Of a stretch of DNA of 60,875 nt, positions 16,724 to 56,757 are shown one piece after another (position 1 is the stretch's first letter; each line of letters opens with the position of its first letter). The DNA lies in the sequence record KF766125; one strand, given 5' to 3'. The translations under genes and the position numbers were made by a program. The notes beneath the pieces are model-generated. The model worked only from the letters and a program-made list of their open reading frames with translations. It was not told the DNA's origin and did no database searches. This DNA comes from Shigella phage 75/02 Stx.

Positions 16724-17052
16724 ACATTAATATTAAATTGATGATTATTAACAACTTAAAACAACGTTAATGTTTTACCTAATAGGGTGTCAACATCTAC
16801 ACAAGGAAATGTTGACACACCACACATTCTGTCGGATACTCTGCGTCAGGTGCTCAAAACACCTTAGCAAGTAGCGGTTACCGCGCCCGACAGACATGCG
16901 GTTTTTTTGTGTCCAGTCTTCTTGGTTTATGACCGGGCGTGCGGCTAATACAATACCAGCAATGGGAATATGCCCGCCGACTACTTGCGGTTTTGAGCGC
17001 CCGGTCACCCTCTCAAAAGGGGTAAATCAAAATATCAAGTAGGACACAAAGC

Positions 17053-19047: not shown

Positions 19048-19241
19048 TGAATGCTAAAATTCAAACGATACCTGAATTACTGATCTGCACCAGGGGAAAT
19101 CAGACAGAAGTCGCCAGAATACTGAACTGCAATCGTGCCACAGTCAGAAAATACATTGATGATAAAGATGCGAAAAAGCACGCCGTCGTCAATGGCGTCC
19201 TTATGGTTCATCGCGGATGGGGTAAAGATACTGATGCGTGA
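19044..19241 (+). CDS. ninH: NinH-like HTH protein
   Basis: [25 protein letters not shown]...VLMVHRGW, lambda NinH-like. Confidence 0.8.
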
Positions 19242-45179: not shown

Positions 45180-45272
45180 CTGCCACAGTATTCATTATCG
45201 TGTGTAAACCAATTGCAATTCACATTCTGACCCTGCCCCGGCAGGGTTTTTTGTTATCCAGGGGGGGCCATT

Positions 45273-45929
45273 ATGGGTGGAAGTAAAGGCGGTGGTGATA
45301 CCAAAGTAAAACCAACAGCAGCGCAAATAGCACAGGAAGAAGTGGCCTGGAAAGGGTGGCAGGATTACAAAAATATCCTCCGCCCGGCTGAAGATAACTT
45401 CATGGAAAAGGTCGATGACCTGAACAGTGAGCAGCAGTACGACAATATTGCTGGCACCACAAATCTGGGGTATCAGAAACAGTTTGGCGAAGCACGGAAG
45501 AAGCTGGCGGGTAATCTTGCTCAGTCCGGTGTTGACCCGTCCAGTGGTCGCTTTAACGCGGTAATGAATGCGAACCAGAGTGATCAGGTAACCGGGCAGA
45601 TTGACACAACCACACGGGGGCAGGTATCGCAGGCAGATAAGTATGTTGCCGGGCTACAGGATGTTGCAGCTCTCGGTTCAGGTCAGAAGGCGGATGCGTT
45701 ACAGAGTTTTAACTCGCTGGCAGACAGCAGTCTGGCAAAAGCTAAATCGGACGCACAGGCTGCGTTTACGAAACAGCAGGGGCGAGCCTCTCTTGTTGGC
45801 GCTGGTTTGGGTGCGGTAGGTGCATATGCGATGCATAAGGCTGGTGGTAGCGGAGGAAGTGGCGGTGCTAAAACACCGGGCACCGGCGCTAATGCCATTC
45901 AGCATCAGGCTCAGAACTGGAGACTGTGA
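45273..45929 (+). CDS. Hypothetical virion protein
   Basis: 218 aa, Gly-rich ends. Confidence 0.6.
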   Translation: MGGSKGGGDTKVKPTAAQIAQEEVAWKGWQDYKNILRPAEDNFMEKVDDLNSEQQYDNIAGTTNLGYQKQFGEARKKLAGNLAQSGVDPSSGRFNAVMNANQSDQVTGQIDTTTRGQVSQADKYVAGLQDVAALGSGQKADALQSFNSLADSSLAKAKSDAQAAFTKQQGRASLVGAGLGAVGAYAMHKAGGSGGSGGAKTPGTGANAIQHQAQNWRL

Positions 45930-46378
45930 TTATGGAGTACGGTAAATACGAAACACTTGCGAGATACGGTTATACCGGAGCTGCCCGTCCACAGGGTGAC
46001 TGGCAGACGTCAGCAGCGCTGACACGCCAACAATACGACGACTGGCGAACCAGATATTTGCCCCGCGTGGCAAGGCTGGCTGACCTTGGCGAGAACAACA
46101 GCCTGATGAATGCACAGCTTGCCCGGGTGGGCGGCCTTGCCACTTCCAGTCTCCGTACAGCGCAGATGGCGCAGGATAACCAGATGGCGAGATACGGGGT
46201 AAGCCGCCCGGATAATCCCGACAGTAATACGCTGGGGTTACGTAATGCCCTGGCAATTGCTGGCGCGAAAAATGGTATCCGTGAAGCCGAACAGGATCGC
46301 CAGATGAACATACTGACGGGGGCTTCTGCACCGGCAAGACAGAAACTGAGTGTTGGCGGACAACTGGTGGCAGCGTAA
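45926..46378 (+). CDS. Hypothetical virion protein
   Basis: 150-aa ORF coupled to neighbours. Confidence 0.6.
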   Translation: MIMEYGKYETLARYGYTGAARPQGDWQTSAALTRQQYDDWRTRYLPRVARLADLGENNSLMNAQLARVGGLATSSLRTAQMAQDNQMARYGVSRPDNPDSNTLGLRNALAIAGAKNGIREAEQDRQMNILTGASAPARQKLSVGGQLVAA

Positions 46379-46387
46379 GGAGGAAAT

Positions 46388-46639
46388 ATGGGGTACGGCT
46401 TACTGGATATTGCGAATCAGTCACGGCGTGAGGCATTACAGGGAATAAGTGACGCAGACCGACGACGTGAAGAAATTGAGGCTGCGAACAAACAGATGGC
46501 GGCGCAACAGAAAGCGCAGAACAAGCAGAATATCGGTACGGGCATTGGTACGGGGGCGGCTATTGGCGCATCCGTTGGTGGTCCTGTTGGTGCTGTTGCT
46601 GGAGCAGTAATTGGCGGCATTGCTGGTTCTTTGTTTTAA
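46388..46639 (+). CDS. Small protein with Gly/Ala-rich C-terminal TM-like segment
   Basis: GTGIGTGAAIGASVGGPVGAVAGAVIGGIAGSLF. Confidence 0.55.
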   Translation: MGYGLLDIANQSRREALQGISDADRRREEIEAANKQMAAQQKAQNKQNIGTGIGTGAAIGASVGGPVGAVAGAVIGGIAGSLF

Positions 46640-46649
46640 GGAGTGGTGA

Positions 46650-47915
46650 ATGAGCGGATTTGCACAGGGGTTACTTGCCGGATTCAGCACGGTTGACCAG
46701 GCAATGACCCGTCGTAAGGAGCTTGGTCTGCGTGAAGCACAGCTTGCCCGGCAACAGAAAAATAACGAGCGCGATTTTGAGTTTGCGCAGTCTCAGTTTG
46801 AACATAATAAAAACGTTGATCAGCGGAACTTTGATTACAGAGCCAAAGTTGACGACCGTAATTATGCACTGAAGGAAAGGGAGTTTAACGCTAACCAGAA
46901 TTACCGGAATGCGTCGCTGGGTATGGAGCAGCAGCGACTCCGGATGCAGAAATACAACCAGCGACGGCTTGAGTATAACGATATGCTGGCGCGCGATCAG
47001 CCTGTGATGGCGGCGCTTGGAAAGGCTGTGGATGCTGGCGATCGGGATGCAGCAATGCGTCTTTACGGCCAGTTGTCAGAGGGTAATCCGCTGAGGCTGA
47101 TGGCGAATGATGGCTATGTAGCGAAAGCGGGTCAGGCCGTGAACAACCTGCAAAAAATCTTTGATGACAAGCCAGACAGGGCTATCGCTTCACTTAATAC
47201 GCCGGAGAATCTTGATGTCCTTTCCGGGGTGTTTGGCCCGGAACTGCAACAGCGTATTGGCATGCCCGATTCAACCGGGAAAAAGACGATAAAAGAGGCC
47301 AGGATTGGCAGTATAGTACCGGCACAGCAGGAAGGGTACATACTTATCGGCCTTGATCTCACATACAGTGATGGCTCTACAGCACATAAACCTGTAACAG
47401 AATACGGCAGTGCGCACCCTGATGATCAAACCGTGCTGGCGATACCCGTTGATAAGGCTATCGCTCAGGTCAGGGATCGCAGCAAATTTGCAGAGATATC
47501 GAAAAATTATGGTTATTTTATGCCGAAGCAGCAGGGACTTTCTCTGAAAGAGCTTCAGAAGGGGGCCAGCAACGTCGCGGCGGACGCGATCAAGAATGGC
47601 GGTAATGCACAGGCTGCGGTGGATGAATATTATGCTGCGACTGGTTCACAACCGCATCAACAGAAAATTCAGCAACAAAAACTTCAGCAACAGGTTATCA
47701 ACTGGGCGGGAGATGATCCTGATAAGCTGTCATTTGCCAGAAATGTAGCGGCCCGTCAGCCTGAAATGCTGGAGCCTCAGAATCAGAAATTGCTGGAGAA
47801 CGGGTATGCGAATTTTCTCCGTATTCAAAAGGCCAGGGGGGAACAGGCCAGAGATGAAAGTGCTTCATCTGCATCTCAGTTTATCCGTGGACTGAAACAG
47901 AATTACGCCCAGTAA
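46650..47915 (+). CDS. Hypothetical virion protein
   Basis: 421 aa, Q-rich, upstream of the giant gene. Confidence 0.65.
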   Translation: MSGFAQGLLAGFSTVDQAMTRRKELGLREAQLARQQKNNERDFEFAQSQFEHNKNVDQRNFDYRAKVDDRNYALKEREFNANQNYRNASLGMEQQRLRMQKYNQRRLEYNDMLARDQPVMAALGKAVDAGDRDAAMRLYGQLSEGNPLRLMANDGYVAKAGQAVNNLQKIFDDKPDRAIASLNTPENLDVLSGVFGPELQQRIGMPDSTGKKTIKEARIGSIVPAQQEGYILIGLDLTYSDGSTAHKPVTEYGSAHPDDQTVLAIPVDKAIAQVRDRSKFAEISKNYGYFMPKQQGLSLKELQKGASNVAADAIKNGGNAQAAVDEYYAATGSQPHQQKIQQQKLQQQVINWAGDDPDKLSFARNVAARQPEMLEPQNQKLLENGYANFLRIQKARGEQARDESASSASQFIRGLKQNYAQ

Positions 47916-47948
47916 TTCACGATATTCCATTAATACCATTTCCTGATG

Positions 47949-47973
47949 CCCGGCCATTGTGCCGGGTTTTTTT
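47949..47973 (+). terminator. Intrinsic terminator immediately upstream of the giant gene
   Basis: cccggc/gccggg stem, loop cattgt, T7; the GGAG SD and ATG 47985 follow directly. Confidence 0.7.
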
Positions 47974-47984
47974 ATGGAGTCTGT

Positions 47985-50900
47985 ATGGCCTATTCAGAGG
48001 AACAGCGTCCTGAGGCGCAACTCGGTAACCAGAATCGTAACAGCCTGAACATTCAGCAACCCGGCGAAACTGACAGCTATGAAGCATTTTTCTCTGATCC
48101 GAATCGCTGGAAGGATAACAGTACGTCGTTCAGCCTGGGCGATGTATTGCCAACAATGGGTAAAGGTTTCGCCCAGTCCGTCCGGGGAACAGGGGAAATG
48201 GCCCGTGGACTCGGTGATGCGATGATTCAGAGCCCGGTAAAAACAGGGGCGCGTATTTTAAATGAGTTCAGCCGTATGGGGCTGCCGGGTGTCGCAACTG
48301 TGCAGGATATTTTTGCCGGTGGCAGCAGGGGGGCTGATGAGGTCATCGATACCCTGCCTGATGGCAAAAACGCGGTTACTGATACTGTCGGTAAAGGTCT
48401 GAAGGCAACCGGTAAGGCTGTCAGTGATGGTGCTGAAGCCACTGATGAATGGCTGACCGGTAAGATGTCGCCGGGTGCAGTTCGTGCGCTGAATACGCCG
48501 ATGACCGAAGGCTATGATGATTCTGCGGTCTGGGTGGCGAAGGGTGTAAACCTGATTGGTGCGCTTGTACCTGATATGGTTGCTGGCGGTGTGGCTAAAA
48601 AGGTGGGTGATGTCACACTGCGAAAAATGCTGACCGCCGGGCTGGAGAAAAAATACATCGCGGCAGGGATGCAGCCGGAAAGAGCCACGGCACTGGCAGC
48701 AGAAGCTGTCGATAAAAAAATGCCGGATTTATTCCAGGCGGGCCTGATCACCCATTCCACAGCCAGTGCACAGGGGCAGAGTGCAATGGCGGCAGCAGAT
48801 GCTGTTCTTAATGCGGATTACTCTGAGCTGGCGCAGTCACCGAAATTTCAGCAGACGTTTTTGTCCATTGACGCCGACCCGCAGCACGCACAGCTTACTG
48901 ATCGCCAGAAAATGGATCTGGCAAAAGAGCGTGTTGCCGATGAGGTGCGCGCGCAGCTGGCAACCGATCCTGAATTGCTGGCTGTGAATGCCATGGCGGC
49001 AAAACTGGGTGACGCACAACTGTTTAATCTGGTGACACGAGGCACAGCGAAGACCGTTAAAAGCGGCATTGTCAGAAATGCCACGGAACAGGGGGCGATT
49101 AATGCGGCGCAGGGCGGCTATTCACGCTATCAGGAAAACACGGCATTGCGTGAGACCGCCGGAATGGATGTGTCACCGTGGGAGGGCGTGGCTGACGCAA
49201 CGATCGAAGGTGCAGCCTTTGGTGCTGCGATGGGGGCTCCATCCGGTGCGGTTGCCGGATATCGTGGCAGACGTCAGGCCGCAGAAGAAGCAGCCATGCG
49301 TGATGCTGAAACCGTGCAGCAGGACGACGCAGCCCCGCAACCAGAATCTGTTGATCCGGTGGCGCAGCATCGTGAATCCATGCAGGGGATGAATCGCGAG
49401 CAGCTTCTGGAGCAGTATGCTGATGCGGATATGGCAACAGAGGGGGACGCATCCGCAGCTCATCGCCGGGAAGCTGCCAGCCAGTTGTTGAATGAACTGG
49501 ACGAACAGGCGAAGCGACAGGCTGTGATGAATGAGCTGAAGGCGAAGCCGCGTTCTGAACTGCTTGAGGAATACCGCAGACTCAGCCAGAAAGAGGAGCG
49601 CACCGAGACTGAAGAACAACAGTTTCAGGCAATACGAGAAGTCATTCGCCCACAACAGGAAGTGACGCCGGAAGCACAGTCACAGCCTGAAAATGCGGAG
49701 GATGGTAACGGGAGCATTTACCCGACGGTGCGGTTCCGGGACCCGAATGAAGTCCGCATTGAAATTAACGGGAATGGTGCGTCCAGACCAGCGGAACGCA
49801 TTGAAAAGGTGCGCCCGGACAACCGTTATTTCACGGATGAGAAAAGCGCCATGGGGAGTGATGTTTTCCGTAATGCCGCCGCCACCGGCCTGAAACCGTC
49901 CGTAGTGAAGAAAGGCGAGACTCAATATGCTGTTGAAATGGATAATCCTGCGTTCTCTGAAGATGTGGCAACGGAAACCATTAACACCCTGGCTGACGGA
50001 GAGCGTATTGCTGATGCTGACCCGATGGAGCAGCCCGCGTTCATGCGTGACCCACGATTCCGTGGTTTCACGGGGGATGATACGGAGGTACAGGCCCGCC
50101 TTGCCCGTGGCAACGTGCCGACGGCAGAGGAGCTTGTACGTTCACAGATGGCTGAAGGTGATGCCGGTCCGACAGCACAGGAGTTAACTGAGCGTCCACG
50201 CCTGCCCGCTCCCGGCGATATTCATCCCGGACAGGGATATCCGTTACCGGGAGAGGTGGCGCGTACGCCGGATGAGAATCAGGCAGGACGTGGTGGTCGT
50301 TTTACCACAACCGGTGAGGTTAAGGGCCAGAGTTTCCAGAAAGGACAAGCTCTGGCACCGGAAAACGCCGCTGGTCGCCAGGGGGAAACACTCGAGGGTG
50401 AAATGGTTCGTCGTGGTCTGCCGTCACCGGATGCGCAGAACGCGACAGCACCGGTACGTGAAGGGCTACCGGCTCCGGACATTACACACAATGTCCGTAT
50501 GCCTCAGCCTGATCAGCTTCCCCGAACTGTTCGTAACTCATTGCCTGAGCTCGCACAGCAGGCAGAAGTACGTCGACAGGCCGGAGGAAATCGTGACATC
50601 CCGCAGCCTGAGACAATCGCACCTGAATCTGAAACAACAGTCGCTACTGACAGGGAAGCTACCGTGCGCGGAGGTGAAGTCAGGGGCAAAAAAATTGAAG
50701 ACTTTGGTGAAGAAATTAAGGGCGCGGCAAAACACCGTTATGCACAGCTTGCTGAAACACTGGGTAAAACGCTGGAAGACAGGGATTATGTCACGCAACC
50801 GCTGAGCAAACTGTTCCCGAAACCGGACTACGCAAAACTGGCGAGCGAAGGGGCTGATGCTGACACCCTGGCAATGATAGCGCTGTATCGTAGCGATATT

Positions 50901-53900
50901 CCGGTGAAGACGAAACACAATACGGCAGGCTGGGGGGAGAGCGTAAAAAAAGTACGACACAGTGTATCGGAAATGCTGAACGGAACGGTCAGCGCGAAAC
51001 GCCTCGCAGAATGGATGGAAGGCAGAATGCCCTCCCGTTACGCGGACACCTGGCAACTGTTACGCACTCTGCCACCCTCACAGATGGACAAGGCTTCTGC
51101 TTATCGGGTGGTATCGGGTGTGTATCAGGCGGCAGGAGGGAAGCGTTACGATCCGCCACAGAAACTTTATTCACTGCGCAATAAGGACAATAAGGGGAGT
51201 AACCTCTTTTTCTCGGAAAGCAGGGATGAATTACTGGCAAAGGCGAAAGTCTGGTTTGCAGAGCAGGAGGAAAAATCACAGGCGAAAGGTGATGAAAAAA
51301 CAGCACCGTCTCCGGATGACAAAATCCGCTTTGACGTTTACCGGAATACCCGCAGTGGCGATATTTTTATCGCTTACGGTAAAAACAAAATGCGGGTGAG
51401 AGGTGGCTTTAAGTCAGCCAGTGATGCGCGTAAGTACATTGATTTACATCGTGATGAGCTTGTTCGTCATGTGAAGGAGATGCGGGAGATTTCGCGTGAG
51501 GAGCAGCGCAACGCCACCAACCGCGACCGTACCGGACCAGAACGCCGCAAGGGGGATGTTTCACCGGAGCAGTTCAGTGATGCGTTTGGTTTTCGTGGTG
51601 TGCAGTTTGGTAATTATGTGGAAAGTCCGCGTCGTCAGGCTGATTTGAACCGGGCTTATGACTCGCTGCATGACCTGGCTGACGTGCTGAATGTACCGAC
51701 AAAAGCGCTTTCTCTGAACGGTCGTCTTGGGCTTGCTTTTGGTGCCCGTGGTAAGGGTAAGGCGGCGGCACACTATGAGTCAGGTGAGGTGGCAATCAAC
51801 CTGACAAAAGGTAACGGACCGGGTGCGCTGGCGCACGAATGGTTCCATTCTCTGGATAATTATTTTGGTCGTTATGACGTTTCCAGTGACGGGAAAATTA
51901 CGTCAGGTGGCGACTTTATGACGGAAGCACAGCGTGTCAGGCGCATATTTAAAGACGGCAGGTATGTTGATGCTGAATATCCGGTACGTCAGGAGGTTTA
52001 CGACGCTTTTAAAGGTGTGATTCAGGCCATTAAAAACAGTGACATGCCGCGTCGTTCAGCGCTTCTTGATGAGGTGCGCTCAAAACCGTACTGGTCAACG
52101 GATGTTGAAATGGCGGCACGTGCCTTTGAGCGTTATGTTCAGGATAAGGCGCGTATGGCTGGCGTGGAGAATGATTATCTGGTCAATATCCGTAAGGCAC
52201 CTGAGCACAACACAGATAACACCTACGCTTATCCGACGAATGCGGAACTGGATGGCGGTATTCGTGAGGCATTCGATCACCTGTTCCGCACCCTGAAAAC
52301 CCGTGAGACGGACAAGGGCGTTGCGTTTTATTCCCGTAAGGGCATGACCCGCACACCTGAAGGTAATCTCATTTCGGATGTTAACCGTAGTGCGGAAGCC
52401 AAAGGCAGCCCGGTCCCGCAGGTTGAAGCGGTTGCCCGTGGCGTGATGAGCGGCATTAAGGACAGTGACCTGACGGTCCGTGTGGTGAAGTCACAGAAAG
52501 AGGCTGAAGCGCTGGCGGGTGAATCGTTCGACGGTTACGGCAGGGTGCACGCATTCTATCGTCCGGATAAACGAGAAATTGTCCTGGTGGCGGATAACAT
52601 CCCTGACGGGCAGACCGTACGCGAGAAGTTGCGTCACGAGATTATCCACCATGCCATGGAGCATGTTGTCACGCCAGCGGAATATCAGACGATTATCAAA
52701 ACCGTGCTGAAAACCCGCGACAGTGATAACGCCACCATCCGTGAAGCCTGGCGTAAGGTTGATGCGTCCTATGGTAAGGAATCACCGGAAGTACAGGCGG
52801 GTGAATTTCTGGCACATATGGCGGAGAAACAGCCGAATAAATTCGTGGCGGCATGGGAGCGTGTTGTTGCCCTGGTCAAAGGGGTACTGCGTCGTACGGG
52901 GTTACTGAAGCCGACGGAACTGAACGATATCAGACTTGTTCGCGAGACCATCCGTACGTTAGGCCAGCGTGTGCGGGAAGGTTACACGCCGCGTGAGGAT
53001 GGCGTGGGCGCATCGTCTCAGTACTCCCGTAGTGGTAAGCCTGATCCGTTCAAAGTGCCGGAAGGTGAGGGTGAACGTTATCGCGATGACCTTGCCAGAA
53101 TGATGAAATCTCTGCGTACCACAGATTTAACGGTAAACATCGGGCGTACGCCGCCGGTATTGCGTCACCTTGGTGCACCGGATTTGCCGCTGGTTATTTC
53201 CCGCGATACTGTGCGGAAGGCCACCAATGGTGTGAAACATGTGGTGCCGATGGATGTTATCGAGAGACTACCGGAACTGATGCACGATCCGGATGCAATT
53301 TACCGCTCAGCGACAGAAAGAAATGCGGTTGTGATGCTGCTTGATGCCGTGGATAAAAATGGTGATCCGGTAGTGTCTGCGGTGCATATGAAGGCAACCC
53401 AAAAACTTCTGGAAGTTAACCGTATTGCTTCTGTTTACGGAACGGAAAACGGGAAAAAACTGAAGAGTATGGAAACGGCTGGCTTAACATTATACAGGAG
53501 AGAAAAACTAAACCCTGATGGTTCTCTGTACAGAGGGCTCCAATTGCCCAAAGATGAGCACTCCCGTCAGGGTTCTGCGGATAAAATACTCTATCCTGAA
53601 GATATTCGCAAGGGGCCGTATTACTCCCGTACCAGCAGTCTGACACCGGAAGAGACAATTGCATCGCGTTTTGTGCGCCAGATGCAGGATAAATTCCAGG
53701 TGCTGAAAGCTGTTCAGGAGAATATCCGTAAAACTGGTGGAAAAATAGACGACAGTAACAACGCTTATATGGCGGAAGAACTCTTCCACGGGAAGGCGGA
53801 AAACGACCTGAACGTGATGAAGGAGCGCTACGTTCAGCCACTGGCTAAATTACTGGCGGACTACAAAATTGCGCAGGCCGATCTGGATGAGTACCTCTAC

Positions 53901-56366
53901 GCCCGTCACGCGCCGGAACGTAACGCGCATATCGCGAAAATCAACCCGAAAATGCCGGACGGCGGTTCGGGGATGACCAACGCGGAGGCGGCGGAAATCA
54001 TGCAGCGTGTACGTAACAGCGGCAAACAGGCACAGTATGACCGTCTGGCAGGGATTGTTGACGATATGCTGGCCCGTCGCCGTGAGCTTATCCGTGAGGC
54101 AGGACTGGAAGAGAGCGGCGTGGTGGATGCCTGGCAGAAAGCCTACCGTTACTACGTTCCCCTGAAAGGGCAGGATGTTGACGGTGTGGTGTCACTGCCA
54201 CGTACAGGCAAGGGATTCACCATCGGCGGGCGTGAAAGTAAGCAGGCCATGGGGCGCGCATCCCGCGCACAGTCTCCTTCCACTCAGGCGATACAGGATT
54301 TGAGCGAATCACTGATCCGCAATCGCAAAAATGAAGTGGGTAACGCCTTCCTGAAACTGGTACAGGATAATCCCGACAAGGATTACTGGCAGGTATTCAC
54401 CGATGACAGACCGGATACCATGCGGACGATTGCAGAGCGCAAGGACCAGGAAACTGGTGAAACCATTCGCGAAGTTGTCGAACGCCCTGTACCGATGGCA
54501 ATGATGGCAGACCGGTACTTCACCACCAAAAAGAACGGCAAAACGTACTACATCAAACTCCATGATCCGCGCCTGATGCGTGCGATGAAGAATATGGGAC
54601 CGGAAACCAGTAACGCCGTAATCCGCACGCTGGGGAAAGTTAACCGCTTCCTGGCAACGGTGAACACGTCGTATAACCCGGAATTCCTGGTCAGTAACTT
54701 CATCCGTGACGTACAGACGGCGGTGATGAACCTGAAGGCGGAGCAGGGAAGGAGCGACGGCAAACTGAAAGGGCTGGATAACTTATCCGCACTGGCTGTG
54801 GTGAAAGACAGTCGGTCTGCCATGTCTGCCGTATACGCCAGTCTGCGTGGTAAAACCCTCACGGGCAACGGTGCGCAGTGGCAGAAGGTGTGGAAAGAGT
54901 TTGTTGAGGACGGAGGTAAAACCGGCTGGTTTAACATGGGTGACCTTGAAGGCCAGCAGAAGGAAATGGATCGCCTTGTATCGCTGGCGAAGGGAGGATG
55001 GAAAGGCCAGAGTATCGGTGCATGGAATTCGTTCCTTAACCTTGTCGAGGATGCCAACGGGGCGGTTGAAAACGCTCTGCGTCTTTCTGCCTATAAACAC
55101 GCCCGTGATGCCGGTTTGTCACGCCAGCAGGCGGCGTCTCTTGCCAAAAACATGACGGTGAACTTTAACCGTCGTGGTGAGCAGGGGGCGCTGATGAACT
55201 CGCTGTACATGTTCGCCAACGCCAGTATTCAGGGAACGGCAAATCTGGTGAGAACGCTCGGACATCTTAATGGTGAGGGACCTTTACTGGAGCGCCTTCG
55301 CTGGAAGAATCTGAATGTTCCGCAGAAAATCGCGCTTGCCGCTGTGGGAGCGGGTTATCTGCTTGGCTCGCTTAACCGCAGCGTGGCGGGTGAGGATGAT
55401 GACGGGGTTAACTGGTATGACAAAGTACCGTCTCATGTGAAAGAGCGTAACCTCGTCATTATGAAATCGGTGTTCGGGGGCAAGGCCGGAGAGTACTGGA
55501 GTATTCCTCTGCCTTACGGGTACAACGTTTTCTTCCTGCTTGGTCACACAGCCGAAGGGGTGGCAGCGGGCGACCTGACCGCTTCACGTGCTGCCGGTAA
55601 TGTTGTTGGTGGTGTGCTTGGGGCATTCAGTCCTGTGGGCAGTGAAACGTCGGAAACACTGTCCGGGGCATTGCTGAAAAATGCAGCGCCGACCATTCTG
55701 CGTCCGTTTGCGAACCTTGCCATGAATGAAAACTTCATGGGGGCGCAGATTTACCAGGAGAACATGCCGTTTGGTACACCAAAACCTGACAGCCAGCTGG
55801 GAAGACATTCAACGCCAGAAGCGTACAAGGCGTTTGCATCCTGGCTGAATGCGTTCTCAGGTGGCAGCCAGTACCGTCCCGGCGCGGTGGATATCACACC
55901 GGAATCGCTGAAATTCTGGATTGACTATATCTCCGGAGGGACAGGGCGCTTCATTTCCAAAACCACGGATGCGGCGGTGAAATCGCTGAATGGTATTGAT
56001 ATACCGGAACAGCAGGTGCCCTTCCTGGGGAAAATTTCGGGTGAGGTGATGCCGTATGCAGACCAGCAGAAGATGTACGACCGGATGACAGAGGTTGCGC
56101 AGTATCACGCAGAGCTGAAGAGTCTGACCGGTGCAGAAAGAACGGCGTTCATTGACGAGAACAACGGAAAATTGTCGATGAACGGGCTTATGCAGGATAC
56201 CCGGAAGAGACTGAAGGATTTGCGCAAACAGCGCGATGCCATTTATGCCGACAGTTCTCTCAGTCTGGCGCAGCAGGCGGCGATGGTGAAATCGGTAGAG
56301 CGGGATATGAAGGTTGCCGTGGATCGGTTTAACCGCGAGTACAACAAAAAAGTGGGAGTGGATTAA
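47985..56366 (+). CDS. Giant virion-associated protein (2793 aa) with two HExxH motifs
   Basis: Uninterrupted 8.4-kb ORF from the ATG at 47985; HEWFH (about 51835-51849) and HEIIH (about 52635-52649); Gly-rich hydrophobic segments near C-terminus. Confidence 0.85.
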   Translation: MAYSEEQRPEAQLGNQNRNSLNIQQPGETDSYEAFFSDPNRWKDNSTSFSLGDVLPTMGKGFAQSVRGTGEMARGLGDAMIQSPVKTGARILNEFSRMGLPGVATVQDIFAGGSRGADEVIDTLPDGKNAVTDTVGKGLKATGKAVSDGAEATDEWLTGKMSPGAVRALNTPMTEGYDDSAVWVAKGVNLIGALVPDMVAGGVAKKVGDVTLRKMLTAGLEKKYIAAGMQPERATALAAEAVDKKMPDLFQAGLITHSTASAQGQSAMAAADAVLNADYSELAQSPKFQQTFLSIDADPQHAQLTDRQKMDLAKERVADEVRAQLATDPELLAVNAMAAKLGDAQLFNLVTRGTAKTVKSGIVRNATEQGAINAAQGGYSRYQENTALRETAGMDVSPWEGVADATIEGAAFGAAMGAPSGAVAGYRGRRQAAEEAAMRDAETVQQDDAAPQPESVDPVAQHRESMQGMNREQLLEQYADADMATEGDASAAHRREAASQLLNELDEQAKRQAVMNELKAKPRSELLEEYRRLSQKEERTETEEQQFQAIREVIRPQQEVTPEAQSQPENAEDGNGSIYPTVRFRDPNEVRIEINGNGASRPAERIEKVRPDNRYFTDEKSAMGSDVFRNAAATGLKPSVVKKGETQYAVEMDNPAFSEDVATETINTLADGERIADADPMEQPAFMRDPRFRGFTGDDTEVQARLARGNVPTAEELVRSQMAEGDAGPTAQELTERPRLPAPGDIHPGQGYPLPGEVARTPDENQAGRGGRFTTTGEVKGQSFQKGQALAPENAAGRQGETLEGEMVRRGLPSPDAQNATAPVREGLPAPDITHNVRMPQPDQLPRTVRNSLPELAQQAEVRRQAGGNRDIPQPETIAPESETTVATDREATVRGGEVRGKKIEDFGEEIKGAAKHRYAQLAETLGKTLEDRDYVTQPLSKLFPKPDYAKLASEGADADTLAMIALYRSDIPVKTKHNTAGWGESVKKVRHSVSEMLNGTVSAKRLAEWMEGRMPSRYADTWQLLRTLPPSQMDKASAYRVVSGVYQAAGGKRYDPPQKLYSLRNKDNKGSNLFFSESRDELLAKAKVWFAEQEEKSQAKGDEKTAPSPDDKIRFDVYRNTRSGDIFIAYGKNKMRVRGGFKSASDARKYIDLHRDELVRHVKEMREISREEQRNATNRDRTGPERRKGDVSPEQFSDAFGFRGVQFGNYVESPRRQADLNRAYDSLHDLADVLNVPTKALSLNGRLGLAFGARGKGKAAAHYESGEVAINLTKGNGPGALAHEWFHSLDNYFGRYDVSSDGKITSGGDFMTEAQRVRRIFKDGRYVDAEYPVRQEVYDAFKGVIQAIKNSDMPRRSALLDEVRSKPYWSTDVEMAARAFERYVQDKARMAGVENDYLVNIRKAPEHNTDNTYAYPTNAELDGGIREAFDHLFRTLKTRETDKGVAFYSRKGMTRTPEGNLISDVNRSAEAKGSPVPQVEAVARGVMSGIKDSDLTVRVVKSQKEAEALAGESFDGYGRVHAFYRPDKREIVLVADNIPDGQTVREKLRHEIIHHAMEHVVTPAEYQTIIKTVLKTRDSDNATIREAWRKVDASYGKESPEVQAGEFLAHMAEKQPNKFVAAWERVVALVKGVLRRTGLLKPTELNDIRLVRETIRTLGQRVREGYTPREDGVGASSQYSRSGKPDPFKVPEGEGERYRDDLARMMKSLRTTDLTVNIGRTPPVLRHLGAPDLPLVISRDTVRKATNGVKHVVPMDVIERLPELMHDPDAIYRSATERNAVVMLLDAVDKNGDPVVSAVHMKATQKLLEVNRIASVYGTENGKKLKSMETAGLTLYRREKLNPDGSLYRGLQLPKDEHSRQGSADKILYPEDIRKGPYYSRTSSLTPEETIASRFVRQMQDKFQVLKAVQENIRKTGGKIDDSNNAYMAEELFHGKAENDLNVMKERYVQPLAKLLADYKIAQADLDEYLYARHAPERNAHIAKINPKMPDGGSGMTNAEAAEIMQRVRNSGKQAQYDRLAGIVDDMLARRRELIREAGLEESGVVDAWQKAYRYYVPLKGQDVDGVVSLPRTGKGFTIGGRESKQAMGRASRAQSPSTQAIQDLSESLIRNRKNEVGNAFLKLVQDNPDKDYWQVFTDDRPDTMRTIAERKDQETGETIREVVERPVPMAMMADRYFTTKKNGKTYYIKLHDPRLMRAMKNMGPETSNAVIRTLGKVNRFLATVNTSYNPEFLVSNFIRDVQTAVMNLKAEQGRSDGKLKGLDNLSALAVVKDSRSAMSAVYASLRGKTLTGNGAQWQKVWKEFVEDGGKTGWFNMGDLEGQQKEMDRLVSLAKGGWKGQSIGAWNSFLNLVEDANGAVENALRLSAYKHARDAGLSRQQAASLAKNMTVNFNRRGEQGALMNSLYMFANASIQGTANLVRTLGHLNGEGPLLERLRWKNLNVPQKIALAAVGAGYLLGSLNRSVAGEDDDGVNWYDKVPSHVKERNLVIMKSVFGGKAGEYWSIPLPYGYNVFFLLGHTAEGVAAGDLTASRAAGNVVGGVLGAFSPVGSETSETLSGALLKNAAPTILRPFANLAMNENFMGAQIYQENMPFGTPKPDSQLGRHSTPEAYKAFASWLNAFSGGSQYRPGAVDITPESLKFWIDYISGGTGRFISKTTDAAVKSLNGIDIPEQQVPFLGKISGEVMPYADQQKMYDRMTEVAQYHAELKSLTGAERTAFIDENNGKLSMNGLMQDTRKRLKDLRKQRDAIYADSSLSLAQQAAMVKSVERDMKVAVDRFNREYNKKVGVD

Positions 56367-56757
56367 CAGAAATGGCCCCGTACGGAAGTGCGGGGCTGAT
56401 TAAGAAATAAACACACATTAACCTGTAATAACCGGAGCTATTAACATATAGTCAGAAAGAGTATTTCATGTGAGACAGAGAGCCGATTTATGTTTAATGA
56501 AGAAAAAGTTGCGCAAATGGCAGCGTATTTGCTGAAAAAGCATGGCGGATCTATGCGTTTCATTAAGCTGATGTATCTCTCTGACCGCAAAGCAATGGAG
56601 TCTTTAACCGGGAAGGGGAGAGGTTTGAATGCTCCCCCACAATTCCCCGGCATCAAATCTCCATGCAGGTGAACTATTTTACCCCCAGCGGCAAATCGCA
56701 AAACAATCAGTGCGATCGAAATGGCAGCCACTACAATTGCAAATGCTTCAGGCTAGG

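What the first reader, a model, noticed from the sequence alone, without database searches (positions are those of the whole stretch)
47949..56366. 2793-aa virion protein with two HExxH motifs, gated by an intrinsic terminator
The last late gene is an 8.4-kb ORF with HEWFH and HEIIH motifs about 270 residues apart in its middle (candidate zincin-like metallopeptidase modules) and Gly-rich hydrophobic segments near the C-terminus that could insert into membranes. That is the profile of a polyvalent ejection or internal virion protein. A canonical terminator (47949-47973) sits directly before its ribosome binding site, implying expression depends on antiterminated read-through.
Basis: partly seen in the sequence, partly recalled or inferred. 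Interest (0 to 1): 0.55.

Follow-up and report, generated by a model that had tools for sequence, protein, structure and literature searches.

The report
Giant ejected polyvalent protein of Stx phage

Summary
A 2793-aa ORF (47985-56366, +) ends the late operon of a Sepvirinae Stx phage, 99.3% identical in DNA to Ss-VASD and 97.3% to VT2-Sakai/Sp5. It equals Sp5 ORF80 (essential) and phi24B gp47 (abundant in virions, invisible by cryo-EM).

Proposed architecture: N-terminal module, acidic linker, X-LPD5-zincin1/LPD1, zincin2, MuF_C (RNase-like), then a 913-aa helical C-terminal module with no PDB counterpart. That last module closes many phage giants that carry other cargo.

The protein has no cysteine, and 94 homologues hold 0.01% Cys. 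Schitoviridae ejection proteins show the same hallmark.

The terminator is real and kept with compensatory changes across Sepvirinae. It is one of at least six in the Q-dependent operon and is absent from most distant relatives, so it is not a gene-specific gate. The Gly-rich segments fall below transmembrane hydrophobicity.

Verdict: mostly known, with modest added detail.

The parts
47948..47973 (+). Intrinsic-terminator hairpin (stem 47948-47967, loop CATTGT) plus T7 tract, between the 421-aa ORF and the giant gene
   Evidence: Conserved in divergent Sepvirinae with compensatory changes: G-C to A-U in ArgO145 and PhiR12_3, G.U to A-U in Stx2_PV06-102.
47976..47979 (+). GGAG ribosome-binding site, 5 nt before the ATG at 47985
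   Evidence: Sequence; invariant in the 5-phage alignment.
47985..56366 (+). Giant CDS: 2793 aa, 307.9 kDa, no cysteine. Equals Sp5 ORF80/ECs1242, VT2-Sakai orf71 and phi24B gp47
   Evidence: phrog_616 matches full length. Literature.
47985..49694 (+). N-terminal module (aa 1-570; conserved core about aa 165-430, with a Gly-zipper-like stretch at aa 408-425). Found at the N-terminus of many 2000-4665-aa phage giants
   Evidence: No Pfam family matches.
49695..50564 (+). Acidic, Pro-rich variable linker (aa 571-860, pI 4.9)
50565..51584 (+). Unnamed conserved domain X (aa 861-1050) followed by LPD5 (aa 1051-1200)
   Evidence: Pfam LPD5, E 1e-44. Domain X co-occurs with LPD5 in giants and in solo proteins.
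51585..52319 (+). Zincin module 1 (aa 1201-1445): HEWFH at aa 1284-1288 (nt 51834-51848), conserved H1263 and D1291, and the helix E1375-R1379-E1382 that lies inside Pfam LPD1 (aa 1361-1440)
52320..53084 (+). Zincin module 2 (aa 1446-1700): RHEIIHH at aa 1550-1556 (HEIIHH = nt 52635-52652) and conserved E1607/E1614 on a downstream helix. Homologues often read HExxxHH
   Evidence: Solo proteins with zincin 2 plus MuF_C exist.
53085..53624 (+). MuF_C domain (Pfam aa 1750-1837), the PBECR RNase-like fold, with conserved K1745, H1752, H1801, S1816 and Y1818
   Evidence: Domain definition from Iyer 2017.
53625..56363 (+). C-terminal 913-aa helical module (aa 1881-2793), which includes LPD38 (aa 2476-2681, nt 55410-56027). 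It is the constant C-terminal part of phage giant proteins
   Evidence: 33-58% identity over 97-99% of its length in proteins with other N-terminal domains. AF2 pLDDT 88, pTM 0.85. No real PDB match. BFVD matches the last chunk of many phage giants, including PTXU04.
46650..47915 (+). 421-aa ORF (Sp5 ORF79 homologue), essential and cysteine-free. A homologous gene precedes the giant in Vibrio phage D96a, and a gene of similar size does so in JC1
45273..46639 (+). Three small cysteine-free ORFs (218, 150 and 83 aa) between the terminators at 45229 and 47948. Candidate partners in ejection (inference)
19135..19611 (+). Q antiterminator gene, at the head of the roughly 37-kb late operon that ends with the giant gene
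   Evidence: Pfam Phage_antitermQ, E 1e-51. A tR'-like terminator lies at 20452.

Best explanation
The gene encodes the giant 'polyvalent' internal virion protein of Sepvirinae Stx phages.

Shown, here or in the literature:
- It is made late, as the last gene of the Q-dependent operon.
- It is present in virions in several copies but is not part of the resolved capsid or tail.
- It is required to obtain tailed, infectious particles.

Inferred mechanism:
- It is packed inside the T=9 head and is expelled unfolded through the tail ahead of or with the DNA. This would explain the near-total avoidance of cysteine.
- Its conserved N-terminal module and its 913-aa helical C-terminal module act as the constant delivery and conduit chassis.
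- The variable middle is cargo: domain X and LPD5, two gluzincin-type metallopeptidase modules (HEWFH...D...E-helix and RHEIIHH...E-helix), and a MuF_C/PBECR RNase-like domain with an active-type His/Ser pair.
- The two zincins most likely cut the 308-kDa chain, or host proteins, after delivery and so release the cargo.

The hairpin at 47948 is a true intrinsic terminator that Q-modified RNA polymerase reads through. It is one of several such sites that partition the late operon. It probably blocks non-antiterminated transcripts from reaching the giant gene and gives a stable 3' end to upstream messages.
For: Identity: 99.3-97.3% DNA identity to Ss-VASD and VT2-Sakai, and matches in 184 Stx phages.

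Polyvalent domains: LPD5, LPD1, MuF_C and LPD38.

Zincins:
- Motif conservation.
- H1263 and D1291 match the phage-type MPTase clade described by Iyer 2017. The HExxxH variants in homologues match their second clade.
- AF2 pLDDT is 80.8, and each HExxH helix follows three strands.

Chassis:
- The C-terminal module is conserved under different cargo.
- The N-terminal module sits at the N-terminus of giants.

Ejection:
- phi24B gp47 is abundant in the proteome and absent from the cryo-EM model.
- JC1 gp69 is in virions.
- The protein has 0 Cys in 2793 aa against 19.5 expected, and the family has 27 Cys in 262,022 aa. This is the signature reported for Schitoviridae ejection proteins.
- Gene order is small, then medium, then giant, as in N4 gp52-gp51-gp50.

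Essentiality: the Sp5 ORF80 deletion and knock-down of PTXU04 gp25, whose C-terminal chunk shares the fold.

Terminator. Q gene.
Against: - No experiment shows ejection into the cell, zinc binding, proteolysis or processing of this protein.
- I could not inspect model coordinates, so the third zinc ligand is inferred from conservation and helix position only.
- Pfam's own MPTase models did not match.
- The Sp5 ORF80 deletion gives DNA-filled heads that do not bind tail-fibre antibody. Classic ejection-protein mutants of P22 (my own knowledge) are not expected to behave this way.
- No canonical transmembrane helix is present.
- No detectable homology to the N4 vRNAP C-terminal domain or to gp51.
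- The terminator is absent upstream of the giant gene in most distant relatives.
Confidence: 0.7

Rival explanations
1. It is a tail-assembly factor or tail component, possibly energy-using (Mondal et al. 2016 suggested an AAA+ ATPase), and not an ejected internal protein.
For: The Sp5 ORF80 deletion packages DNA and makes normal heads, but tail-fibre antibody does not bind. The authors conclude it takes part in tail assembly and cite a COG1483 hit.
Against: There is no Walker A motif and no ATPase family in Pfam or NCBIfam. The phi24B cryo-EM model accounts for portal, adaptors, nozzle, fibres and needle without gp47, although gp47 is abundant. Cysteine avoidance is not expected for a cytoplasmic assembly factor. 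The phenotype also fits an internal protein that must sit on the portal before the tail can attach (inference).
Confidence: 0.12
2. It is a dispensable anti-defence effector of the DarB type: antirestriction cargo that matters only in restricting hosts.
For: PHROG 10089, 'DarB-like antirestriction', matches aa 2351-2681. Relatives in Bcep22-like phages are annotated DarB-like. Iyer 2017 views polyvalent proteins as counter-defence weapons.
Against: The match covers only the shared C-terminal module, and no helicase or methylase domain is present. The gene is essential in Sp5, and its relative is essential in PTXU04.
Confidence: 0.06
3. The metallopeptidase modules digest peptidoglycan to let the conduit cross the wall, as proposed in the phi24B preprint.
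For: The proposal is in the preprint. Other family members carry a lytic transglycosylase domain (LT_GEWL) in front of the same C-terminal module, so wall breaching by this protein class is plausible.
Against: The preprint assigns the peptidase to MuF_C, which is the PBECR RNase-like domain. The real HExxH modules resemble the endopeptidases MtfA, lethal factor and PPEP, not cell-wall peptidases. No lysozyme or transglycosylase domain is found in this protein.
Confidence: 0.1
4. The hairpin is a dedicated regulatory gate that sets the dose or timing of the giant protein specifically.
For: It lies 11 nt before the start codon and is conserved with compensatory changes across Sepvirinae. An unrelated hairpin plus T-run sits at the same position in Vibrio phage D96a and in loci L027 and L044/L046.
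Against: Comparable co-oriented terminators follow the portal gene, the capsid gene, the 129-aa ORF after it, lom and another ORF in the same operon. About 45 distant relatives with a visible gene start lack one; only 2 distinct hairpins were seen against roughly 1 expected by chance. JC1 has none predicted there.
Confidence: 0.2

Closest known systems
Phage-type polyvalent proteins (Iyer, Burroughs, Anand, de Souza & Aravind 2017, PMC5512222)
   Same: One giant chain joins unrelated domains (LPD5, LPD1, MuF_C/PBECR, LPD38) with zincin MPTases as hubs. It is encoded among virion genes. Zincin 1 has the His-at-strand-2 plus Asp-after-HExxH signature, and homologues of zincin 2 have the HExxxH form, both described there.
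   Different: That paper treats the domains as a network. It does not mention the Stx phage protein in its main text. It says nothing about cysteine avoidance. It lists LPD1 as a separate domain, whereas here LPD1 holds the conserved Glu helix of zincin 1.
Sp5 ORF80 (ECs1242) and phi24B gp47
   Same: The same gene at 97-98% DNA identity. It is essential in Sp5 and is a virion protein proposed to be ejected in phi24B.
   Different: Published annotations give COG1483/AAA+ (not reproduced) or a 'MuF-C metallopeptidase' (a mis-assignment). The two HExxH modules, the modular chassis and the cysteine-free signature are not in the passages of those two papers that I read, which I consulted by term search and single sections only.
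N4/DEV virion RNA polymerase (gp50/gp71) with gp51/gp52 (gp72/gp73), the Schitoviridae ejection operon
   Same: A giant protein of about 3000-3500 aa is packed in a T=9 podovirus head and is invisible in reconstructions. It has an HExxH subdomain followed by a large all-helical C-terminal domain with no known fold. Cysteine is almost absent. The gene order is small, medium, giant.
   Different: There is no RNA polymerase domain here. No sequence or profile similarity to the N4 C-terminal domain or gp51 was detected (hhalign probability 0.2%). Homology therefore remains untested at the structure level.
T7 gp14/gp15/gp16 and P22 gp7/gp16/gp20 ejection proteins
   Same: Internal proteins of short-tailed phages that leave the head and extend the tail across the envelope (review listed; my own knowledge).
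   Different: Those are several separate small or medium proteins, and T7 gp16 carries a transglycosylase. No fold or sequence match was found. The Sp5 mutant loses tails.
Gluzincin endopeptidases MtfA, anthrax lethal factor and Pro-Pro endopeptidases
   Different: Only 12-14% identity, and no sequence-level match. The substrate is unknown.

Membership tests
Phage-type polyvalent protein (Iyer 2017) | Several unrelated globular domains in one very large polypeptide | tested here: met
   Pfam LPD5, LPD1, MuF_C and LPD38 above their cutoffs, plus two HExxH modules.
Phage-type polyvalent protein (Iyer 2017) | Encoded among late or virion genes of a phage | tested here: met
   It is the last + strand gene after portal, capsid, nozzle and fibre genes.
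Phage-type polyvalent protein (Iyer 2017) | Delivered into the host together with the DNA | not testable with these tools
   Only virion presence is shown, in phi24B. Cysteine avoidance is indirect support.
Zincin (gluzincin) metallopeptidase, module 1 | HExxH on a helix that follows a three-stranded sheet, conserved in homologues | tested here: met
   HEWxH in 80/80 homologues. Strands at aa 1249-1252, 1262-1265 and 1270-1273 precede the helix at aa 1282-1295 in the AF2 model.
Zincin (gluzincin) metallopeptidase, module 1 | Third zinc ligand (Glu) on a later helix facing the site | tested here: inconclusive
   E1375 and E1382 are at least 95% conserved on the helix at aa 1373-1391. The geometry could not be inspected.
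Zincin (gluzincin) metallopeptidase, module 2 | HExxH/HExxxH helix after a sheet, plus a downstream Glu helix, conserved in homologues | tested here: met
   RHExx(x)HH in about 52 of 57 homologues. Strands at aa 1497-1535 precede the helix at aa 1542-1561. E1607 and E1614 are conserved (small alignment of 6 sequences) on the helix at aa 1601-1615.
Zincin metallopeptidase (both modules) | Fold similarity to solved zincins | tested here: met
Zincin metallopeptidase (both modules) | Match to a curated peptidase family model | tested here: not met
   No Pfam peptidase or MPTase model matches above threshold; Peptidase_M76 reaches only E 0.11. NCBIfam CLCA_X scores 150 bits against a cutoff of 260.
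Zincin metallopeptidase (both modules) | Zinc binding and proteolytic activity | not testable with these tools
   Needs biochemistry.
Schitoviridae-type ejection operon (N4 gp52-gp51-gp50) | Near absence of cysteine in the ejected proteins | tested here: met
   0 Cys in the giant protein and in the four ORFs upstream (3665 aa in total). The family has 0.01% Cys.
Schitoviridae-type ejection operon (N4 gp52-gp51-gp50) | Homology to gp50 C-terminal domain, gp51 or gp52 | tested here: not met
   hhalign probability 0.2%; BLASTP E at least 0.39. A structural comparison with the 2026 N4 model was not possible.
Schitoviridae-type ejection operon (N4 gp52-gp51-gp50) | Virion RNA polymerase domain | tested here: not met
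   No RNA polymerase family is detected.
P1 DarB-like antirestriction protein | Helicase and DNA methyltransferase domains | tested here: not met
   None is detected; the PHROG match is confined to the C-terminal module.
AAA+ ATPase (COG1483, as suggested for Sp5 ORF80) | Walker A/P-loop and an AAA domain | tested here: not met
   No [AG]xxxxGK[ST] motif and no AAA family hit.
Intrinsic (Rho-independent) terminator | G+C-rich hairpin immediately followed by a U tract, co-oriented with transcription and intergenic | tested here: met
Intrinsic (Rho-independent) terminator | Structure kept by compensatory substitutions | tested here: met
   G-C to A-U, and G.U to A-U or G-C, in ArgO145, PhiR12_3 and Stx2_PV06-102.
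Intrinsic (Rho-independent) terminator | Terminates RNA polymerase, and is read through with Q | not testable with these tools
   Inferred from lambdoid Q biology and the presence of a Q gene.

The most novel reading that the evidence does not exclude
The block 45273-56366 (cysteine-free ORFs of 218, 150, 83, 421 and 2793 aa) would be the genome-ejection operon of Sepvirinae. It would be evolutionarily or mechanistically equivalent to the Schitoviridae gp52-gp51-gp50 set.

The giant's N-terminal module and its 913-aa helical C-terminal module of unknown fold would form a universal delivery chassis of the T=9 podoviruses for which capsid structures are known (933W-like and GP4; N4-like phages are T=9 too), and by homology of Bcep22-like phages. 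Lineages would plug different cargo into it: RNA polymerase, ADP-ribosyltransferase, methylase, RelA/SpoT, transglycosylase, and here two zincins plus an RNase-like domain. The embedded zincins would cut the cargo free after injection.
Probability: 0.3. Interest if true: 0.6.

Novelty: already known. Interest (0 to 1): 0.33.

Why it matters
Short-tailed Stx phages spread Shiga toxin genes, and how they cross the envelope after binding BamA is unknown. This one protein takes up 14% of the genome and is essential.

Three things become directly testable. The catalytic residues of its two peptidase modules and of its RNase-like domain are now defined and can be mutated. The constant N- and C-terminal modules are candidates for the delivery machinery. 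The cysteine-free signature offers a simple way to find ejection proteins in unrelated podoviruses.

The terminator result is a caution. Hairpins inside a Q-dependent operon should not be read as gene-specific switches.

Tried and rejected
- Sequence and profile searches of PDB chains with the whole protein, with alignments A1 and A2, and with the 421-aa ORF found nothing meaningful.
- Relaxed Pfam scans of eight sub-segments added no family.
- The AAA+/COG1483 idea was rejected: no Walker A motif.
- The DarB idea was rejected: only the C-terminal module is shared.
- Homology to the N4 gp50 C-terminal domain and gp51 was not detected.
- Family-wide positional conservation of the terminator was tested on 80 IMG/VR loci. 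It holds in Sepvirinae only.
- A search for loci with the N-terminal-module alignment failed, because no stretch was conserved enough.
- The genomic context of a solo C-terminal-module protein (P0175) turned out to be a decayed prophage and was uninformative.
- Canonical transmembrane helices were not found.
- A first HExxH count in the giants gave false zeros, because many carry HExxxH. This was corrected.

Full report
**What is there**

The window is a short-tailed Shiga-toxin-converting phage of the subfamily Sepvirinae. The region 47900-56400 is 99.3% identical to Shigella phage Ss-VASD and 97.3% identical to VT2-Sakai/Sp5. It matches 184 phage records over at least 80% of its length.

The ORF is real. 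ATG 47985 follows GGAG by 5 nt and opens a 2793-codon frame that ends at 56366. The longer 2806-aa reading used in old annotations starts at ATG 47946, at the foot of the terminator hairpin. RefSeq uses 2793 aa.

HEWFH (aa 1284) and HEIIH (aa 1551) are present, against 0.04 HExxH expected from composition.

The hairpin at 47948-47967 plus a T7 tract lies in the 69-nt gap after the 421-aa ORF. A strict scan finds 10 such elements in the window against 0.04 in shuffles.

**What is already known about this gene**

- It is Sp5 ORF80 (ECs1242). Its deletion abolishes plaques and lysogenisation. DNA is still packaged and heads look normal, but tail-fibre antibody no longer binds (PMC5155283).
- It is phi24B gp47. 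That protein is abundant in the virion proteome and absent from the cryo-EM and negative-stain model. The authors therefore propose a capsid-packaged ejection protein (bioRxiv 10.64898/2026.04.10.717836).
- RefSeq calls it an LPD5 domain-containing protein. That places it in the polyvalent proteins of Iyer et al. 2017 (PMC5512222).
- Relatives in Bcep22-like phages are virion proteins (JC1 gp69).
- A 2198-aa relative in coliphage PTXU04 is required for infection by CRISPRi-ART. The C-terminal chunk of that protein shares the fold modelled here.

**The two HExxH motifs**

Among homologues below 90% identity, motif 1 reads HEWxH in 80 of 80, and motif 2 reads HExxH in 15 of 16.

In 57 homologous regions from giant proteins, motif 2 reads RHExxHH or, with one more residue, HExxxHH (for example HEILAHH). 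Four copies have Glu in place of the first His, and one further copy (P0329/1274-1415) was not tallied.

Around motif 1, these positions are at least 95% conserved: H1263, E1265, D1291, R1357, D1362, E1375, R1379 and E1382. A His at the end of strand 2 and an Asp three residues after HExxH are the signature Iyer et al. give for a widespread phage-type MPTase clade. HExxxH is their second clade.

The AF2 model of aa 1041-1700 has pLDDT 80.8. It places each motif on a helix that follows three strands:
- Module 1: strands at aa 1249-1273, then the helix at aa 1282-1295.
- Module 2: strands at aa 1497-1535, then the helix at aa 1542-1561.

It also places the conserved glutamates on later helices (aa 1373-1391 and aa 1601-1615).

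No curated peptidase model matches. NCBIfam CLCA_X covers aa 1182-1437 at E 6e-44 but falls below its cutoff.

I conclude that both motifs belong to real zincin-fold modules. The third ligand is inferred, not seen. Pfam LPD1 (aa 1361-1440) contains the Glu helix of module 1 and is probably part of that peptidase.

**Architecture**

- LPD5, zincin 1 and LPD1 occur together as solo proteins of about 480 aa.
- Zincin 2 plus MuF_C also occurs as solo proteins of about 450-490 aa.
- MuF_C is the PBECR RNase-like domain of Iyer et al., not a metallopeptidase as the phi24B preprint states. Its K1745, H1752, H1801, S1816 and Y1818 are conserved in about 50 of 52 homologues. This matches the active His plus Ser/Thr configuration.
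- The last 913 residues form one module. It is 33-58% identical over 97-99% of its length in more than 100 proteins whose upstream parts differ: ADP-ribosyltransferase, methyltransferase, LPD3 and others.
- Its AF2 model is confident (pLDDT 88, pTM 0.85) and mostly helical. It has no real counterpart in the PDB.
- In BFVD the module matches the final chunk of many phage giants. These include PTXU04 and proteins annotated with LT_GEWL, RelA/SpoT or methylase parts.
- The first roughly 570 residues (core about aa 165-430) recur at the N-terminus of giants of 2000-4665 aa.

The protein is therefore a constant N-terminal and C-terminal chassis with exchangeable cargo in between.

**Support for ejection from composition and gene order**

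The protein has no cysteine, where 19.5 would be expected from the other late proteins. Ninety-four giant homologues hold 27 Cys in 262,022 residues, and 81 of them have none. The four ORFs just upstream (45273-47915) also have none.

The same suppression is reported for the Schitoviridae ejection proteins gp71/gp50, gp72/gp51 and gp73/gp52. It is explained there by passage through the oxidising periplasm (PMC11445570).

N4 gp50 also ends with an HExxH subdomain followed by a helical domain of about 110 kDa and unknown fold (PMC13434306). Its gene follows a small and a medium gene. The same order is seen here and in Vibrio phage D96a, where the medium gene is a homologue of the 421-aa ORF (29% identity, E 1e-13).

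Profile and BLAST comparisons with the N4 proteins are negative, however. The parallel is functional, not demonstrated descent.

**The C-terminal hydrophobic segments**

They exist (aa 2449-2467 and 2515-2556) but are only mildly hydrophobic. They are modelled as helices within the compact module. Membrane insertion remains speculation. The N-terminal module has a comparable segment (aa 182-200) and a Gly-zipper-like run (aa 408-425).

**The terminator**

All Sepvirinae loci examined keep it, in three sequence variants whose differences preserve pairing. These include a G-C to A-U double change in ArgO145 and PhiR12_3.

The operon starts at Q (19135-19611, Pfam E 1e-51) and runs through stxA (20906-21859) to the giant gene. 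It contains other strong co-oriented terminators:
- 20452 and 22387;
- 32866, after the portal gene;
- 35268 and 35708, after the capsid gene and the 129-aa ORF that follows it;
- 44372 and 45229, after lom and the next ORF.

The hairpin is therefore one of a set that only an antiterminated polymerase can pass, not a private gate.

Among about 45 distant relatives with a visible gene start, only two distinct loci carry a hairpin within 150 nt upstream, against about one expected. Vibrio phage D96a has one as well.

**Verdict**

Compared with the passages I read in the cited papers, this analysis adds:
- the definition of the two zincin modules and their candidate ligands;
- the correction of two published domain assignments;
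- the chassis-plus-cargo architecture;
- the fold novelty of the C-terminal module;
- the cysteine-free signature;
- the demotion of the terminator from 'gate' to one of several Q-dependent sites.

Noticed in passing
window 45273-56366: The giant protein and the four ORFs before it (218, 150, 83 and 421 aa) contain no cysteine at all (3665 aa), while the other late proteins have 0.70%. Ninety-four giant homologues average 0.01% Cys.
   Followed up: yes
window 20452, 22387, 32866, 35268, 35708, 44372, 45229 (+ strand): Several strong intrinsic-terminator hairpins lie inside the Q-dependent late operon: after the portal gene, the capsid gene, the 129-aa ORF after it, lom and others. They divide the operon into cassettes.
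   Followed up: partly
window 47946: Older annotations (VT2-Sakai orf71, 2806 aa) start the giant gene at an ATG at the foot of the terminator hairpin; the phi24B preprint gives 2811 aa for gp47, an upstream start I did not inspect. The RBS-backed start is 47985.
   Followed up: yes
window 52065-52304 (aa 1361-1440): Pfam LPD1 coincides with the conserved E-x3-R-x2-E helix that follows HEWFH. It is probably the C-terminal subdomain of the zincin and not an independent domain.
   Followed up: partly
window 53232-53495 (aa 1750-1837): The phi24B preprint calls MuF_C a metallopeptidase. It is the PBECR RNase-like domain, here with conserved H1752 and S1816.
   Followed up: partly
L009 11510-11625 (Vibrio phage D96a): A distant relative (29% identity) has an unrelated hairpin plus T-run at the same position between the medium gene and the giant gene. 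An AT-rich spacer of about 80 nt follows, which could hold a promoter.
   Followed up: partly
window 22220-22473: Rfam finds STnc100 (+) and the anti-sRNA AgvB (-) back to back, just downstream of stxA (20906-21859).
   Followed up: no
window 16931-17014 (+), 59926-60011 (-), 60463-60551 (-): Three copies of the Rfam family sRNA-Xcc1 score above the gathering threshold.
   Followed up: no
window about 56432-56548 (-): By mapping from the Ss-VASD annotation, a Hok/Gef-family toxin gene lies convergent to the giant gene, immediately after its stop codon. Rfam reported no Sok or hok RNA at gathering score.
   Followed up: no
window 46388-46639: The 83-aa ORF annotated 'bacteriocin' has a YMGG-like glycine-zipper (Pfam E 9e-06, below cutoff). 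phi24B proteomics detected its homologue in virions but dismissed it as a contaminant.
   Followed up: no
window 1-60875: ARAGORN finds no tRNA genes anywhere in the window.
   Followed up: no
L007 10001-12946: A solo 981-aa copy of the C-terminal module (Amphritea sp.) sits next to an integrase and excisionase in what looks like a decayed prophage.
   Followed up: partly
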